A stretch of 64,000 bases of DNA. Source: Anaerolineae bacterium (lineage in GTDB: Bacteria > Chloroflexota > Anaerolineae > J102). The stretch spans positions 6,490 through 70,489 of the forward strand of contig JALXCB010000044.1 in NCBI GenBank assembly GCA_026991225.1. Reading direction: 5' to 3'. Within the stretch, counting starts at the first letter, position 1. Each line of letters begins with the position of its first letter. A model generated the notes under the pieces. That model ran no database searches. It saw nothing but the letters and a program-made list of their open reading frames with translations, and was not told the origin of the DNA. Position numbers and translations under genes: made by a program. Positions 8,745 to 62,960 of the stretch are shown here, piece after piece.

Positions 8745-8949
8745 CGCCACCACTTTTTGCCGCGAAGACACGAAGGAAACGAGGGCGCAAAGTCATCCAA
8801 AAAAGGTAACTGCTAAGGTAGTTGGCCCCAATCGCCCCTTTTTTGCCACGAAGACACGAAGGAAACGAAGGCGCGAAGTCATTCAAAAAAGATTTTATCC
8901 GTGTTTCCTCGTATCCGTGTCGAGTGAACAGGGCTACGTTAGCAGTTAT
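8745..8949. mobile_element. MITE-A variant copy (8806-8949) preceded by a partial tandem half-copy (8745-8805)
   Basis: GTAACTGCTAAGGT ... ACGTTAGCAGTTAT; internal sequence matches the outer element at 24178; lies between convergent gene ends. Confidence 0.7.
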
Positions 8950-22636: not shown

Positions 22637-22659
22637 GGTGGCTCCTGTTCCGAAGATAG

Positions 22660-22835
22660 CGTTGCGTTGGTTTGCAAAAGCAACTCGAAGCCCGCGTTGG
22701 GCGAGTCTGCAACGGGCGTGATGCGTGAAAACGTGGAACGTGAGAGCGTTACGCATCACGCATTACGCATCACGTGCTTGGCTTCCCGCGCGGCCCTGGC
22801 CGCGGGGCGTTTTCGTTCGTCTCGGCGAACCGCCG
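22660..22835. repeat. family-B REP-like element (CGTGATGCGTGAAAACGTG...TTACGCATCACG hairpin core with GGCCGCGrGGCGTTTTCGTTCG tail)
   Basis: Homologous copies at about 24525-24665 (inverted), 42083-42240, 42425-42525 (inverted), 43720-43830, 45035-45180, 57060-57215; degenerate variants at 10860-10930, 38870-38990, 63120-63195. Confidence 0.75.
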
Positions 22836-23080: not shown

Positions 23081-24181
23081 GTGTTCGATCGGATTTTTCG
23101 CATCCTTGGACTTATCGTTTTCGCCATCATCGGATGGGAGATCGGCGTCATCATGACGGGCGTCTCGAATCCCCTGCAGGACCTGGAATCGCTGAAGTAT
23201 GTGGCGCCTTTGACGTTGGTTGGGGCCGTGGTGGGGTGGATCATCGCTCCCTGGATTACAACCCGCCCCGCGCGTTACGCCATTCGGGTGGTGCGGCAGA
23301 TACCCATCGAGGAAGTCATCGCCGGCAGCATCGGCCTGATCCTGGGCCTGATCGTCTCCGCGCTGGTGGCCATCCCCCTGGCCAAACTGCCCCCGCCCTT
23401 CGGGCCGATTCTGCCCTTCATCGCCAGCATTGTCTTCGGCTACCTGGGCGCGCTCATCCTGGTGTTGCGCCGGGATGATCTGGTGAAGCTGTTCCGTTCC
23501 TTCCAGAAAGAGCGCGGCGATCAGGCCGTGACGACGGAGGATGCGGTCGCACCCGCTCCCTCCCCTCTGCCCCCCGGCCCGACGCCCTTGCTCCTCGACA
23601 CCAGCGTCATCATCGACGGCCGCATCCTGGACGTGGCCAAAACCGGATTCCTTCCCGGCCCCTTGCTGGTCCCCCGCTTCGTCCTCTCCGAACTCCAATA
23701 TATCGCAGATTCCTCCGACGCCCTGCGGCGGGCCCGCGGGCGCCGGGGACTTCAGGTGCTGGATGATCTCCAGAAGCTGGACAGTCCCAGGCTGGAGATT
23801 GTGGACCTGGACGCGCCCGACGTGAAGGAGGTGGATGAGAAGCTCATGGCCCTGGCCCGTCAATATGGCATCGGCATCGTCACCAACGACTACAACCTCA
23901 ACCGGGTGGCTGCTCTCCAGGGCGTGAAGGTGCTCAACCTGAACGATCTCGCCAACGCGGTGAAAGCCATCTACCTGCCGGGCGAGCATCTGCGCCTGCG
24001 CATCATCCAGGAGGGCAAGGAGCCCGACCAGGGGGTGGGCTATCTGGAAGATGGCACCATGGTGGTCGTCGAGCGCGGCCGCGACCTCATCGGCCAGGAG
24101 GTGGAGCTGGAGGTGACCAAAGCCTTGCAGACCAGCGCCGGGCGCATGATCTTCGCCGCGCCCGTGCGAGATTCCGAGTAA
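23081..24181 (+). CDS. PIN/TRAM-domain protein (YacL-like)
   Basis: N-terminal TM helices, central PIN domain, C-terminal TRAM-like domain; stop codon lies inside the inserted MITE. Confidence 0.75.
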
Positions 24182-24471
24182 CCGCTAACGTAGCCCTGTT
24201 CACTCGACACGGATACGAGGAAACACGGATAAAATCTTTTTTTGTAACTGCTAACGTACCCCGGTTAACAAACCACAAAGGGCACAAAGGCGCCAAGAAC
24301 ACGAAGAAAAAAATGTATAAATTCCCCTTTGTGCCTTTGTGTCTTCGTGTTCTTAGTGGTTTTCGGGTGATGACCTTAGTAGTTACCTTTTTAAATGACT
24401 TCGCGCCTTCGTTTCCTTCGTGCCTTCGTGGCAAAAGAGGGGCTACTGGGGCCAACTACCTTAGCAGTTAC
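24178..24471. mobile_element. composite MITE-A: outer variant copy (TSD GATTCCGA) carrying a nested MITE-A (24244-24386)
   Basis: Outer TIRs GTAACCGCTAACGT / ACCTTAGCAGTTAC with TSD 24170-24177 = 24472-24479; inner element has its own TIRs and a degenerate CTTTTT flanking repeat; the outer body matches the copy at 8806-8949. Confidence 0.75.
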
Positions 24472-24714
24472 GATTCCGAATCCAATTTCCACGGCCGGTA
24501 GCGCGCAAAGCCGGCGATACGAGCAACGGCTCGCCGATGCGAACGAAAACGCCTCGCGGCCAAGTCGGCGCGGGAAGCCAAGCACGTAATGCGTGATGCG
24601 TAACGATCTCACGTTTCACGTTTTCACGCATCACGTCCGTAGCAGACTCGCCCAACCTCGTCCTGGCGTTCCTCAATCCTAATCCTGATCCTACTCCTAT
24701 TTATCAAAGCAGCC

Positions 24715-31192: not shown

Positions 31193-32215
31193 ATGACCCC
31201 ATCCACCGTCCCCGAACTCGTCGACGCCCTGCTCGCGGGCAACCGTCGCGCCCTGGCCCGCGTCATCTCCCATATCGAAAACAACACCGACCTGGCCCGA
31301 CCTCTCCTGGCCGCGCTCTATCCCAGGGCGGGGCGGGCGCACATCATCGGCGTCACCGGCTCTCCCGGCACGGGCAAATCCACCCTGGTCAACGTCCTGG
31401 CCGGGGTCTATCGCCAGCGCGACCTCACCGTGGGCGTCATCGCCATCGACCCCACCAGCCCCTTCAGCGGCGGCGCCCTGCTGGGCGACCGGGTGCGGAT
31501 GCGCGATCTGGCGGGGGATCCAGGCGTATTCATTCGATCCATGGCCACGCGCGGCAGTCTGGGCGGGCTGGCCCAGGCCACCGCGGACGTGATCATGGTG
31601 CTGGACGCGGCCGGCTTCGACCGCATCATCATCGAGACGGTGGGCGTGGGGCAGAGCGAAGTGGAGATCGCCAGCGCCGCCTACACCACCGTCGTGGTGG
31701 AAGCCCCCGGCCTGGGGGATGAAGTCCAGGCCATCAAGGCAGGCGTGCTGGAGATCGCGGATATCTTCGCCGTGAACAAGGCGGACCGGGAGGGCGTGGA
31801 CCGCACGGTCATGGCCCTGAAAATGATGCTCAGCCTGGGCGCGCCCGAGAAGTTCCAGGTGATGCATCATGGCCGGATGCTGCCCGTGGAGATTCCCCAG
31901 GCCCGGACGGAGTCCCATGCCTGGACGCCTCCCATCATCAAGACCATCGCCGTCTCGGGCGAAGGCGCGGTCGAACTGGCCGACGCCATCGAGAATCACC
32001 GCCTCTATCTGGAGCAGAGCGGCGGTCGGGTGTTGCGAGATCGACTGCGGGCCGCCACCGAGCTGCGCATGATTTTGCGCGATTACCTGCTGGAAAAACT
32101 CCTGGCCCGCACGCCCGAAGACGTGCTGAAACAGACCATCGACGCCGTCGCCCGCCGTGAGATCGATCCCTACACCGCGGTGCAACAGTTGGTCGATCAA
32201 GTTCGTAACTGCTAA
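31193..32215 (+). CDS. meaB: methylmalonyl-CoA mutase-associated GTPase MeaB/ArgK
   Basis: GVTGSPGTGKSTLVNVL P-loop; last three codons and stop lie inside a MITE. Confidence 0.9.
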   Translation: MTPSTVPELVDALLAGNRRALARVISHIENNTDLARPLLAALYPRAGRAHIIGVTGSPGTGKSTLVNVLAGVYRQRDLTVGVIAIDPTSPFSGGALLGDRVRMRDLAGDPGVFIRSMATRGSLGGLAQATADVIMVLDAAGFDRIIIETVGVGQSEVEIASAAYTTVVVEAPGLGDEVQAIKAGVLEIADIFAVNKADREGVDRTVMALKMMLSLGAPEKFQVMHHGRMLPVEIPQARTESHAWTPPIIKTIAVSGEGAVELADAIENHRLYLEQSGGRVLRDRLRAATELRMILRDYLLEKLLARTPEDVLKQTIDAVARREIDPYTAVQQLVDQVRNC

Positions 32216-32358
32216 GGTCGCGCCGCCGCTTTTTGCCACGAAGACACGAAGAAAACAAAGGCACGACGTATTTTTCTTTATTTTTTCCTTCGTGGCTTCG
32301 AAAAACTTCGAGCCTTCGTGGCTTCTTGTGGCCTTAAGTCGAGTACGTTAGCAGTTAC
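32205..32358. mobile_element. MITE-A copy with TSD TCAAGTTC, inserted in the last codons of meaB
   Basis: TIRs GTAACTGCTAAGGT / ACGTTAGCAGTTAC; TSD 32197-32204 = 32359-32366; meaB stop TAA lies in the TIR. Confidence 0.85.
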
Positions 32359-38846: not shown

Positions 38847-39231
38847 CGGTTTTGAAAAATAACTTCGCGTTCGTTTACACAAGCAACTCAAAGCCAACGT
38901 TGGGCGAGTCTGCTACGGGCGTCAAACGTCATACGTAAAACGTCAGGACATGACGCATGACGTTTGACGCTGACCGACTGACAAAACGTTGCCTATGCGT
39001 TTGCCGTGTCCCTTTGCCCCCTCCCCGGCCCTTATATGATAAAGCGGGGTGAGGATATATGATAACCGTGTCATATAACTCATCTCCCCCGATACTCGCT
39101 CCGTTCGTGTTCGAGAGAAGGGGACGCCCGAAGCCAGTCAGTTTTCACGAAATAAGCGCTTCTTACCGGGCGAAAACATGTCCCCTGCCCTTCGCTCCTT
39201 TTGACCTCGCTACGTTGGTAGCTACGCCTGC

Positions 39232-42059: not shown

Positions 42060-42316
42060 AGCGTCCTCCTGTTTCGGAAGTGGCGTTGCGTTGGTTTACA
42101 AAAGCAACTCGAAGCCCGCGTTGCGCGAGTCTGCAGCGGACGTGATGCGTGAAAACGTGAAACGTGAGAGCATTACGCATCACGCATTACGTGATTGACT
42201 TCCCGCGCCAACCTGGCCGCGAGGCGTTTTCTGCATCCCAGGATACCCCCCAACCATTCACAAAATGTGATGCGAATGTAAAAAATGTGTCATCCCCCGC
42301 CGCCCAACGGACAAAG

Positions 42317-42390
42317 TGGGGCCCCTCGGGCTTGAACCGAGAACCGGCGGTTTATGAGACCGCTGCTCTAACCACTTGAGCTAGGGCCCC
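42317..42390 (-). tRNA. tRNA-Met (anticodon CAT)
   Basis: Reverse complement folds as cloverleaf: acceptor GGGGCCC/GGGCCCC, anticodon loop CTCATAA, T-loop TTCAAGC; CCA not encoded. Confidence 0.85.
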
Positions 42391-42576
42391 CTATGTGGTT
42401 GCACGCCCCATCGAAAAAACGCTTTGTTGGCGCGGGAAGCCGCGTCGTGAAACGTGATGCGTGATGCGTAACGTTATCACGTTTCACGCATTACGTTTCA
42501 CGTGAGTTGCCGCCTCGGCCAACTTTGGCTTGACGAACCTTTCGCCATCTGCGCCAACGCGCTATCTTCAAAGAAG

Positions 42577-42647
42577 AGCGGGCAACGGGATTCGAACCCG
42601 TGACGAGAGCTTGGAAGGCTCTAGTGTTACCACTACACCATGCCCGC
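42577..42647 (-). tRNA. tRNA-Gly (anticodon TCC)
   Basis: Acceptor GCGGGCA/TGCCCGC, anticodon stem AGAGC/GCTCT with loop CTTCCAA, T-arm GGGTTCGAATCCC. Confidence 0.85.
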
Positions 42648-42792
42648 GCGGAAAACAGTCATCCGTGATGGACATAGAAATTCTACACAGGATCGCGGGA
42701 AATGACAAGTCGAGAAGGAGCACAGATCACAATCTCCCTTCTCTGTGTTCTCTGTGCGATCTCAGTGAACTCGGTGTTCCTCTTTCAAAAAA

Positions 42793-42866
42793 GTCGGGGA
42801 GGCCGGATTCGAACCGACGACCTCTTGGACCCAAACCAAGCGCGCTACCGAACTGCGCTACTCCCC
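42793..42866 (-). tRNA. tRNA-Pro (anticodon TGG)
   Basis: Acceptor CGGGGAG/CTCCCCG, anticodon stem CTTGG/CCAAG loop TTTGGGT, T-arm GTCGGTTCGAATCCGGC. Confidence 0.85.
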
Positions 42867-42872
42867 GATGGG

Positions 42873-43001
42873 AGTAACTGCTAACGTACTCGACTTCAGG
42901 CCACAAGAAGCCACGAAGGGGAAAATAAAGAAAAATACGTCGTGCCTTCGTTTTCTTCGTGTCTTCGTGGCAAAAAGCGGCGGTGCGACCTTAGCAGTTA
43001 C
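42873..43001. mobile_element. MITE-A short variant (129 bp) with TSD CGATGGGA, 6 nt from the tRNA-Pro 5' end
   Basis: TIRs GTAACTGCTAACGT / ACCTTAGCAGTTAC; TSD 42865-42872 = 43002-43009. Confidence 0.85.
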
Positions 43002-43080
43002 CGATGGGATAAGTATAGCGAGATTTGGCCGCAGGGTCAAGGAAAATGGGAAAATGTGAACGGGACGGCGGGGGAAAGTT

Positions 43081-43656
43081 GTGGCAATGGCGGGGAAAGC
43101 GATAAAATTAGCGGTTGTGTCAGGCTCCCCAACGCCATCCCGGATCATGGAGACTTCCCCTTTGATTGCCCGCATCGCCACGAGAACGTCCGTCAACCCC
43201 AAGGAACTCGAACGCTTCATCAAGTTCGCCATCGTGGGGGCCATTGGCGCGGTGGTGGATTTCGTCGTGCTCAATATCATGAAGATCATCTTCGAGCGGA
43301 TGGGGTTGGGCGTGGGATGGCATATCGGGCTGGACCCCAACCAGATTCAGCTCATCGCCGCCAACACCATCTCCTTCACCACCGCGGTCATCAGCAACTT
43401 CACCTGGAACCGCCTGTGGACTTTCCCCGAATCGCGCGACAGGCCCATCATTCCCCAACTGCTGCAATTCGCCACGGTCAACGTCATCGGGCTGGTCATC
43501 AACACCTTCATCCTGGTGTTCATGGACCACTACGTGTTCAGCCAGTTCTTCGACCACCGCATCAGCTACAACCTGGCCAAAGCCTTCGCCATCGGCGTCG
43601 TGCTGTTCTGGAATTTCGGGGTCAACCGCATCTGGACGTACAAAGGCATTGAATAA
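43081..43656 (+). CDS. GtrA-family membrane protein
   Basis: ERFIKFAIVGAIGAVVDFVVLNIMKIIF GtrA signature; four TM helices; start may be downstream. Confidence 0.7.
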   Translation: MAMAGKAIKLAVVSGSPTPSRIMETSPLIARIATRTSVNPKELERFIKFAIVGAIGAVVDFVVLNIMKIIFERMGLGVGWHIGLDPNQIQLIAANTISFTTAVISNFTWNRLWTFPESRDRPIIPQLLQFATVNVIGLVINTFILVFMDHYVFSQFFDHRISYNLAKAFAIGVVLFWNFGVNRIWTYKGIE

Positions 43657-43855
43657 TCTCTGGAAGTTGTCATTTGGAATGAAAAGCGCGCGCCAGCAAG
43701 ATGGGCGCGGGCAGCCAAAGCCGTGAAACGTCATGCGTGATGCGTGACCATCTCACGCGTCACGATTTCACGCATCACGCCCGTTGCCGCCTCGCCCAAC
43801 GTCAGCCTGGCGGGCCTTTCGCAGACGGCGCCAACGCTCTGGACGAAACAGCACC

Positions 43856-44992: not shown

Positions 44993-45224
44993 AGATGGAG
45001 TGATCGCTGGTCGTTGAAGGATCGCCAGGATTACGTTGGCCGAGGCGGCAACGGGCGTGATGCGTGAAAACGTGATACGTGAGGTCTTCACGCATCACGC
45101 ATGACGTTTCACGTCCTTGGGTTCCCGCGCCACACGGGCCGCGAGGCATTTTCATCGGTATGGGCGAGCTTTCGCCTGTGTCGACCGATTTGTAAGCGGA
45201 TGCGTCCCAAATTATTGGCAGACA

Positions 45225-57013: not shown

Positions 57014-57282
57014 GTTGGCCTCCTGCTTTGAAAATAGGATTCGGATTGAGGATCGTCAGGACAACGTTGAGCGAGCCTGCAACGGACGTGATGCGTGAAA
57101 ACGTGAAACGTGAAGGCCTTACGCATCACGCATTACGTTTCACGGGCCGGCTTCCTGCGCGGCCCTGGCCGCGATGCGTTTTCGTTCGTATCGGCGAGCT
57201 TTGGATCAGGGTGCTCGCTTCAAAGAAAAAGGGGATGGCAGCAAACGGCGACCATCCCCTGAGTCAGCGATAGAACGGCGGA

Positions 57283-59544: not shown

Positions 59545-59697
59545 GTAACTACTAAGGTCGCGACACCACTTTTTGCCACGAAGACACGAAGAGAACGAAG
59601 GAGCGAAGCCTTCTTCTTTATTTTTCCTTCGTGTCTTCGTAAAACTTCGAGCCTTCGTGGCTTCTTACGACCTAAAGTCGAGTACGTTGGCAGTTAC
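59545..59697. mobile_element. MITE-A copy 30 bp upstream of the SH3-protein gene
   Basis: TIRs GTAACTACTAAGGT / ACGTTGGCAGTTAC; imperfect flanking repeat GAACTTAT / GAACTATC. Confidence 0.75.
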
Positions 59698-62796: not shown

Positions 62797-62960
62797 GTAA
62801 CTGCTAAGGTATCGCCACCACTTTTTGCCACGAAGACACGAAGAAAAGCCAAGGCACGACGTATTTTTCTTGATTTTTCCTTCGTGTCTTCGAAAAACTT
62901 CGAGCCTTCGTGGCTTTTGGCGGCCTAAAGTCAAGTACGTTAGCAGTTACAAACTCGGGC
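62797..62960. mobile_element. MITE-A copy with TSD AAACTCGG, inserted in a family-F repeat between HMGCS and thiolase
   Basis: TSD 62789-62796 = 62961-62968; the uninterrupted family-F copy at 45225-45360 has a single AAACTCGG. Confidence 0.85.

What the first reader, a model, noticed from the sequence alone, without database searches (positions are those of the whole stretch)
42793..43009. MITE-A inserted 6 nt upstream of the tRNA-Pro 5' end, displacing the native tRNA promoter
tRNA-Pro(TGG) is encoded on the minus strand with its 5' end at 42866. The MITE TSD (CGATGGGA, 42865-42872 and 43002-43009) overlaps the first two tRNA nucleotides, and the element body occupies 42873-43001. Any promoter for this tRNA must now lie inside or beyond the MITE. 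So either the MITE carries an outward-reading promoter, or the tRNA depends on read-through from upstream, or the three tRNAs Met/Gly/Pro form a cluster whose organisation I cannot resolve.
Basis: partly seen in the sequence, partly recalled or inferred. Interest (0 to 1): 0.55.

Follow-up and report, generated by a model that had tools for sequence, protein, structure and literature searches.

The report
Mobile element splits tRNA-Pro from promoter
A 128-bp non-coding mobile element (MITE) has landed in the 8-bp gap between a proline tRNA gene and its own conserved promoter, so the tRNA is most likely still made from that promoter with the element transcribed as an extra 5' leader that is cut off; this is an ordinary kind of event.

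Summary
tRNA-Pro(TGG) lies on the minus strand at 42793/4-42867. A 128-bp MITE (42874-43001) has perfect 11-nt terminal repeats (GTAACTGCTAA). It is flanked by a perfect 8-bp target duplication, CGATGGGA, at 42866-42873 and 43002-43009.

The native promoter is not lost. A strong sigma-70-type promoter, TTGACC-17-TATACT (43040..43012, minus strand), directly abuts the far duplication. With the MITE and one duplication removed, its -10 box sits 8 nt from the tRNA 5' end.

Five MITE-free relatives carry the same Pro-Gly-Met tRNA operon. All five have the same two hexamers, 8-14 nt upstream of tRNA-Pro, while the spacers between the hexamers differ.

So the MITE inserted about 4 nt downstream of the predicted transcription start. 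It should now be transcribed as a ~138-nt hairpin leader (-47 kcal/mol) that RNase P removes. This copy has no terminator-like site, and no copy has a conserved outward promoter.

All five same-species assemblies that cover the site carry the insertion.

Verdict: the read-through option is supported, from the tRNA's own promoter. It is a new member of a known kind, of low to moderate interest. Expression itself is inferred, not shown.

The parts
42793..42867 (-). tRNA-Pro(TGG) gene. It is intact, with its mature 5' end at 42867.
   Evidence: ARAGORN and Rfam RF00005 at 66.9 bits. The sequence is identical to tRNA-Pro in the MITE-free relatives L018, L020 and L022.
42866..42873 (.). tRNA-proximal copy of the 8-bp target-site duplication CGATGGGA. 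It includes tRNA nucleotides 1-2.
   Evidence: Sequence and flank comparison.
42874..43001 (-). MITE-A copy, 128 bp. The family's 'forward' strand here is the minus strand, the same direction as the tRNA. It carries a 26-bp internal deletion relative to the 153-155-bp copies.
42874..42887 (.). Terminal inverted repeat, tRNA-proximal arm.
   Evidence: pair I12 (14 nt, 93%). The outer 11 nt are perfect.
42988..43001 (.). Terminal inverted repeat, promoter-proximal arm.
   Evidence: pair I12.
43002..43009 (.). Promoter-proximal copy of the target-site duplication CGATGGGA. It contains the predicted transcription start, A at about 43005 on the minus strand.
   Evidence: Sequence. The start position is inferred from a distance of 7 nt after the -10 box.
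43012..43040 (-). Native promoter of the tRNA operon: -35 TTGACC (43040-43035), 17-nt spacer, -10 TATACT (43017-43012).
   Evidence: 10/12 matches. Both hexamers are invariant in five relatives.
42680..42708 (-). Internal promoter ahead of tRNA-Gly: TTGTCA-17-TAGAAT.
   Evidence: 10/12 matches. GTGTAGAAT is invariant in the window, L018 and L022.
42576..42647 (-). tRNA-Gly(TCC), second gene of the operon.
42426..42563 (-). Copy of a second repeat family (MITE-B) filling most of the Gly-Met spacer.
42316..42390 (-). tRNA-Met(CAT), third gene of the operon.
43079..43108 (+). Divergent promoter of the GtrA-family gene (TTGTGG/GTGGCA ... TAAAAT). It is untouched by the insertion.
   Evidence: The block is conserved in L009, L018 and L023.
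43147..43656 (+). GtrA-family membrane protein gene (169 aa), used as the anchor to find orthologous loci.
   Evidence: PF04138.

Best explanation
A non-autonomous transposable element (MITE-A; 8-bp target duplication, ends beginning GTAA) transposed into the 8-bp stretch between the -10 box of the Pro-Gly-Met tRNA operon promoter and the first nucleotide of tRNA-Pro.

The target duplication rebuilt both junctions. The promoter, its predicted start site (A at about 43005) and the first five transcribed bases are unchanged on one side. The tRNA and its six upstream bases are unchanged on the other.

The likely mechanism has three steps:
1. Transcription still starts at the native promoter.
2. 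It runs through the whole MITE, which folds into a self-contained hairpin in a ~138-nt 5' leader.
3. RNase P cleaves at the unchanged tRNA 5' end, and the leader is discarded.

tRNA-Gly and tRNA-Met are further buffered by an internal promoter.

Shown here: the anatomy, the promoter's conservation in relatives, the absence of a terminator motif, and the presence of the insertion in all same-species assemblies that were found. Inferred: the start site, read-through and processing.
For: 1. The promoter TTGACC-17-TATACT lies at 43040..43012, 2 nt outside the far duplication. It matches 10/12; the region has 4 promoter-like sites against 0.6 expected.
2. The reconstructed empty site puts the -10 box 8 nt from the tRNA. 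L022 (Caldilineae bacterium M2005) has an identical tRNA-Pro and the arrangement TTGACC-18-TATACT-8 nt-tRNA.
3. L018, L009/L023 and L013 have the same hexamers 13, 14 and 10 nt upstream, with diverged spacers (alignment).
4. None of these relatives has the MITE at this site.
5. The tRNA-to-GtrA intergenic distance is 279 nt. Subtracting 136 nt leaves 143 nt, against 148 nt in L018.
6. The leader folds as one hairpin at -47.4 kcal/mol with z = -4.0. The tRNA cloverleaf folds independently beside it.
7. There is no terminator-like site on either strand of 42200-43300.
8. No conserved promoter-like site occurs inside any MITE-A copy.
9. The window, L001, L002, L015 and L024 (98.7-99.6% identical) all carry the MITE. 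Their tRNA and both hexamers are intact, while the spacer and duplication positions vary.
10. Three other copies sit 29-36 nt upstream of co-directional genes. This suggests read-through of the element is tolerated.
Against: There are no expression data, so the start site, read-through and RNase P processing are all inferred.

A very stable hairpin 4 nt after the start site could slow promoter escape or cause pausing, so tRNA-Pro output may be reduced.

The polymorphism evidence for selection on the hexamers is weak: about 5 substitutions, none in 12 hexamer positions, p about 0.16.

No exact empty allele was found in the same species. Polarity therefore rests on outgroups that are 84-88% identical in GtrA, plus L022.

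I could not check whether the genome has a second tRNA-Pro(TGG).
Confidence: 0.75

Rival explanations
1. The MITE itself supplies an outward-reading promoter that now drives tRNA-Pro, as some Neisseria Correia elements do. The old promoter would then be redundant.
For: Four copies that sit 6-36 nt upstream of a gene or tRNA all present the same 'forward' orientation to it. Correia elements are known to carry functional promoters (PMC3184786).
Against: No sigma-70-like match of 8/12 or better is conserved in any of six copies, in either orientation, junctions included. The tool scan at 9/12 finds none in this copy. The orientation count is small (4 against 1 counter-example at 62797) and is equally explained by read-through tolerance. 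A strong conserved native promoter sits 2 nt outside the element.
Confidence: 0.07
2. The insertion cripples or silences tRNA-Pro expression. The hairpin would block escape, cause pausing or termination, or misdirect processing. The cell would survive on another tRNA-Pro gene or on very low expression.
For: A hairpin of -47 kcal/mol begins 4 nt after the predicted start. A U-rich tract lies at the apex of the element. The ancestral leader was only about 2 nt, so the substrate has changed considerably.
Against: No hairpin-plus-U-tract terminator was detected in this copy; the U-tract lies in the loop, not after a stem. The tRNA is intact and identical to that of MITE-free relatives. The insertion is present in all five same-species assemblies covering the site, from different samples, so it is not strongly deleterious. 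RNase P tolerates long leaders (established knowledge).
Confidence: 0.12
3. tRNA-Pro is expressed by read-through from a more distant upstream transcription unit rather than from the adjacent TTGACC/TATACT site.
For: None specific.
Against: The next gene upstream (GtrA, 43147-43656) is on the opposite strand, with its own conserved divergent promoter. No co-directional gene lies upstream within 279 nt. The adjacent promoter is conserved in five lineages, including L022 where the upstream neighbour is a different gene.
Confidence: 0.04

Closest known systems
Bacterial MITEs that are co-transcribed with adjacent genes (Neisseria Correia/CREE elements, ERIC, RUP, BOX)
   Same: Small size (about 100-155 bp), terminal inverted repeats, flanking target duplications, many intergenic copies, folding into long RNA stem-loops, and frequent positions in 5' or 3' untranslated parts of transcripts (review PMC3184786).
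   Different: The duplication is 8 bp rather than the TA of Correia elements. No promoter motif was detectable at the ends. The host is an uncultured Anaerolineae/Caldilineae-type Chloroflexota bacterium. The gene downstream is a tRNA rather than an mRNA. RNase III or IHF involvement was not tested.
IS66-family insertion sequences, as the possible parent of the MITE
   Same: An 8-bp target duplication and terminal repeats that begin GTAA (the IS66 description is quoted in PMC11946415).
   Different: The IS66 ends are given as GTAAGCG, whereas this element has GTAACTG. No transposase-bearing parent with these ends is in the window, and none was found in plasmid records. Parentage is a lead only.
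Bacterial tRNA operons with a sigma-70 promoter and RNase P-processed leaders
   Same: Co-directional tRNAs behind a single consensus promoter. The 5' leader is removed endonucleolytically, so leader content is largely irrelevant to the mature product.
   Different: The ancestral leader was unusually short (-10 box only 8 nt from the mature 5' end in the window and in L022). It is now about 138 nt and consists almost entirely of a transposon.

Membership tests
MITE (non-autonomous TIR transposon) | Short length (under about 300 bp) with no coding capacity | tested here: met
   128 bp here and 153-155 bp in the full copies.
MITE (non-autonomous TIR transposon) | Terminal inverted repeats | tested here: met
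   11/11 perfect, 13/14 when extended.
MITE (non-autonomous TIR transposon) | Target-site duplication of fixed length flanking each copy | tested here: met
   Perfect 8-bp duplications in 5 of 6 core copies and in the outer nested element.
MITE (non-autonomous TIR transposon) | Multiple dispersed copies | tested here: met
   At least 8 copies in 64 kb. The end motif occurs 18 times against 0.15 expected.
MITE (non-autonomous TIR transposon) | Empty orthologous site in relatives (shows insertion polarity) | tested here: met
   L022, L018, L009/L023 and L013 have promoter and tRNA contiguous with no MITE. No empty allele was found within the species (uninformative).
MITE (non-autonomous TIR transposon) | Autonomous parent IS with matching ends | not tested
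   None in the window. The plasmid BLAST was negative.
IS66-derived element | 8-bp direct repeats | tested here: met
   The family trait is as stated in PMC11946415.
IS66-derived element | Terminal repeats starting GTAAGCG | tested here: inconclusive
   Only GTAA is shared; this element reads GTAACTG.
IS66-derived element | IS66-type transposase (TnpC) able to mobilise it | not testable with these tools
   The whole genome is not available.
Sigma-70-type promoter of the tRNA operon | -35 and -10 hexamers with 16-18 nt spacing | tested here: met
   TTGACC-17-TATACT, 10/12 matches.
Sigma-70-type promoter of the tRNA operon | Conservation at the orthologous position | tested here: met
   Both hexamers are invariant in 6 sequences from 5 lineages, with diverged spacers.
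Sigma-70-type promoter of the tRNA operon | Mapped transcription start and promoter activity | not testable with these tools
   This needs 5'-RACE, dRNA-seq or a reporter assay.
Correia-like promoter-bearing MITE | Outward promoter motif at the element ends | tested here: not met
Correia-like promoter-bearing MITE | TA target duplication | tested here: not met
   The duplications are 8 bp and of varied sequence.
Intrinsic terminator inside the leader | GC-rich hairpin followed directly by a U-run | tested here: not met
   No sites in 42200-43300. Only copy 59545 has one, created by copy-specific substitutions.

The most novel reading that the evidence does not exclude
MITE-A may not be a passive passenger. 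It could act as a mobile 5'-leader module. In its 'forward' orientation it may be preferentially retained immediately upstream of genes (four cases at 6-36 nt). Its hairpin could set transcript fate there, through RNase III processing, pausing or attenuation. At this locus that would put the output of a probably single-copy tRNA-Pro(UGG) under new control and uncouple it from tRNA-Gly and tRNA-Met, which have their own internal promoter.
Probability: 0.1. Interest if true: 0.5.

Novelty: new member of a known kind. Interest (0 to 1): 0.3.

Why it matters
This is a clean natural example of how tolerant a bacterial tRNA gene is to disruption of its promoter-proximal region. A transposon landed in the only 8 bp that separate the -10 box from the mature tRNA, and both were preserved by the target duplication.

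It offers a ready-made test of whether a near-leaderless pre-tRNA can accept a 138-nt structured leader. It also documents two dense, apparently undescribed small-repeat families in an uncultured Chloroflexota lineage. These repeats break metagenome assemblies.

It does not reveal a new mechanism.

Tried and rejected
- **Empty allele in JGI metagenomes.** An exact-match scan for the empty-site junction gave 0 hits. A scan for the promoter itself also gave 0 hits. The species is therefore simply absent from that collection, and the negative result is uninformative.
- **Genome-collection scan with tRNA-Pro.** This gave only two species. It yielded the best empty-site orthologue (L022) but could not answer whether this genome has a second tRNA-Pro(TGG).
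- **Other GtrA relatives.** P0003, P0004, P0005, P0006 and P0007 have other genes upstream of GtrA and no tRNA operon there, so they are uninformative.
- **Outward promoter in the MITE.** A relaxed scan found nothing conserved.
- **Promoter-targeted insertion as a family habit.** No other copy's reconstructed empty site has a promoter-like site within 120 nt.
- **Terminator in the MITE.** None was found in this copy.
- **Plasmid BLAST for a parent IS.** No match.
- **Rfam.** Nothing other than the three tRNAs.

Full report
**Observation.** ARAGORN finds three minus-strand tRNA genes in the window: Met(CAT) at 42316-42390, Gly(TCC) at 42576-42647 and Pro(TGG) at 42793-42867. Rfam confirms all three and nothing else. 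Directly upstream of tRNA-Pro, at higher coordinates, lies a 128-bp element (42874-43001). Its terminal inverted repeats are GTAACTGCTAA, 11/11 perfect and 13/14 when extended. It is flanked by a perfect 8-bp direct repeat, CGATGGGA, at 42866-42873 and 43002-43009. Only the left-hand coordinates are 1 nt too low.

**It is a genuine MITE family.** The end motif occurs 18 times in the window against 0.15 expected by chance, in pairs about 150 bp apart. Six core copies (27682, 32205, 42874, 52383, 59545, 62797) align end to end. Five of the six have perfect 8-bp flanking duplications of unrelated sequence. A seventh, composite element at 24178-24471 also has a perfect duplication (GATTCCGA) and contains another copy nested inside it. 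The tRNA-Pro copy is a deletion derivative: 26 bp are missing between two CTTCGTGGC direct repeats. All copies are intergenic. Ends beginning GTAA together with 8-bp duplications are the traits quoted for IS66-family elements (PMC11946415). However, the IS66 ends are given as GTAAGCG and no parent IS was found, so that link is only a lead.

**The key finding: the native promoter is still there.** On the minus strand, 2 nt beyond the far duplication, lies TTGACC-17-TATACT (43040..43012). It matches the sigma-70 consensus at 10 of 12 positions. With the MITE and one duplication copy removed, the sequence reads TTGACC-N17-TATACT-TATCCCAT-CGGGGAG(tRNA). The -10 box is then only 8 nt from the mature 5' end.

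**Orthologous loci.** I located orthologues through the neighbouring GtrA gene and through an exact-pattern scan with the tRNA. Five MITE-free lineages carry the same Pro-Gly-Met operon. All have the same two hexamers just upstream of tRNA-Pro:

| Locus | Relationship | Spacer between hexamers | -10 box to tRNA |
|---|---|---|---|
| L022 | Caldilineae bacterium M2005, tRNA-Pro identical | 18 nt | 8 nt (tgggCCAT, against tatcCCAT in the window) |
| L018 / L020 | GtrA 88% identical | 18 nt | 13 nt |
| L009 / L010 / L011 / L023 | GtrA 85% identical | 18 nt | 14 nt |
| L013 | GtrA 84% identical | 17 nt | 10 nt |

In the alignment both hexamers are invariant, while the spacer and flanks have diverged. 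The tRNA-to-GtrA intergenic distance is 279 nt in the window. Subtracting the 136 nt of MITE plus duplication leaves 143 nt, against 148 nt in L018. So the MITE inserted between the -10 box and the tRNA. The promoter was moved 136 bp away, not destroyed.

**Most likely mechanism.** The following steps are inferred. A start 7 nt after the -10 box falls on the A at about 43005, inside the promoter-proximal duplication. Because of the duplication, and because the first base of the element is G, the sequence from the promoter through +5 is unchanged. On the other side, the six bases preceding the tRNA are also unchanged.

The transcript would therefore carry a ~138-nt leader consisting of the whole MITE. 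This leader folds into a single long hairpin of -47.4 kcal/mol (z = -4.0; 0 of 200 shuffles fold as well). When folded together with the tRNA, the cloverleaf forms independently, and a short single-stranded UCCCAU linker lies between the two structures.

No hairpin-plus-U-tract terminator is detected on either strand of 42200-43300. The element's U-rich tract lies in the hairpin loop. Only copy 59545 has a terminator-like hairpin, created by substitutions specific to that copy. RNase P would then cut at the unchanged junction. That step rests on established knowledge of pre-tRNA processing and was not tested here.

**Rival: an outward promoter in the MITE.** A relaxed scan (8/12 or better, -10 of the form TAnnnT) of all six core copies with their junctions, in both orientations, finds nothing conserved and nothing in this copy. 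Four copies that lie 6-36 nt upstream of a gene or tRNA all face it in the same orientation, which is suggestive. The sample is small, however, and there is a counter-example at 62797. Three of the four lie between co-directional genes, where simple read-through explains the arrangement equally well. No other copy's reconstructed empty site has a promoter nearby, so the element does not target promoters.

**Rival: the tRNA is crippled.** The tRNA is intact and identical to that of MITE-free relatives. The insertion is present in every same-species assembly that covers the site: the window, L001, L002, L015 and L024. L003 also begins inside the element. These assemblies are 98.7-99.6% identical and come from several samples. 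Among them, substitutions occur in the promoter spacer and in the far duplication but not in either hexamer. The numbers are too small to demonstrate selection. Reduced expression cannot be excluded.

**Cluster organisation.** Pro-Gly-Met is an ancestral compact operon. The spacers are 14/14 nt in L013 and 25/75 nt in L009. In the window they are 145 and 185 nt.

The Pro-Gly spacer contains a second promoter, TTGTCA-17-TAGAAT (42708..42680, 10/12). Its GTGTAGAAT is invariant in the window, L018 and L022. tRNA-Gly and tRNA-Met therefore do not depend solely on the upstream promoter.

The Gly-Met spacer is mostly a copy of a second repeat family, MITE-B (42426-42563). Another copy follows tRNA-Met (about 42066-42232), and a third separates GtrA from the glycosyltransferase gene (43704-43840). 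In relatives those two genes abut or overlap.

**Dead ends.** Exact-match scans of JGI metagenomes for an empty allele and for the promoter both returned nothing, so the species is absent from that collection. A plasmid BLAST of the MITE was negative. Whether the genome has another tRNA-Pro(TGG) could not be tested.

**Verdict.** This is an ordinary MITE insertion into a transcribed leader, unusual only in hitting an 8-bp gap between a -10 box and a tRNA. I rate it a new member of a known kind, with interest of about 0.3.

Noticed in passing
window 22642-22814, 24545-24656, 38867-38962, 42066-42232, 42426-42563, 43704-43840, 45017-45153, 57049-57183: A second dispersed repeat family ('MITE-B', about 110-170 bp). 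It has a central CGTGAAACGTGATGCG-type hairpin and, in most copies, a terminator-like 3' end (CGCGGCCCTGGCCGCG followed by a T-run). Three copies lie within 2 kb of the tRNA operon. The copy in the Gly-Met spacer lacks the terminal hairpin but keeps a run of six T.
   Followed up: partly
window 24178-24471: A nested or composite element. The outer pair of GTAAC(C/T)GCTAA ends has a perfect 8-bp duplication (GATTCCGA). It encloses a variant copy at 24244-24386 flanked by T-rich sequence.
   Followed up: partly
window 8806-8949, 32205-32358, 59545-59697, 42874-43001: Four MITE-A copies lie only 6-36 nt upstream of a gene or tRNA, and all face it in the same orientation. There is one counter-example at 62797-62950, 81 nt upstream of a minus-strand gene. 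The sample is too small to call this a bias.
   Followed up: partly
window 43002-43017; L022 1421-1434: In the reconstructed empty site and in L022, the -10 box is only 8 nt from the mature tRNA-Pro 5' end. This implies an ancestral leader of about 0-2 nt, a nearly leaderless pre-tRNA. Other relatives have 10-14 nt.
   Followed up: partly
window 59597-59616: Copy-specific substitutions in one MITE-A copy create a terminator-like hairpin followed by a T-run (GAAGGAGCGAAGCCTTCTTC TTTATTTTTC). It is absent from the other copies.
   Followed up: no
L003 position 1 (window about 42922); L024 position 1 (window about 42966): Two metagenome contigs of the same species end inside this MITE, which shows that the repeat breaks short-read assemblies.
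   Followed up: yes
L022 1515-1600; L013 1260-1405 and 1463-1520: Relatives have their own small inserts. L022 has a palindromic block in its Pro-Gly spacer. L013 has a MITE-A-like fragment with CACAAAG repeats ending in CGTTAGCAGTTAC, and a TTGACAATTGACC tandem array elsewhere.
   Followed up: no
window 43079-43108 and 43012-43040: The back-to-back divergent promoters for GtrA and the tRNA operon are both conserved across relatives. Their -35 boxes are about 40 bp apart. The MITE missed both.
   Followed up: partly
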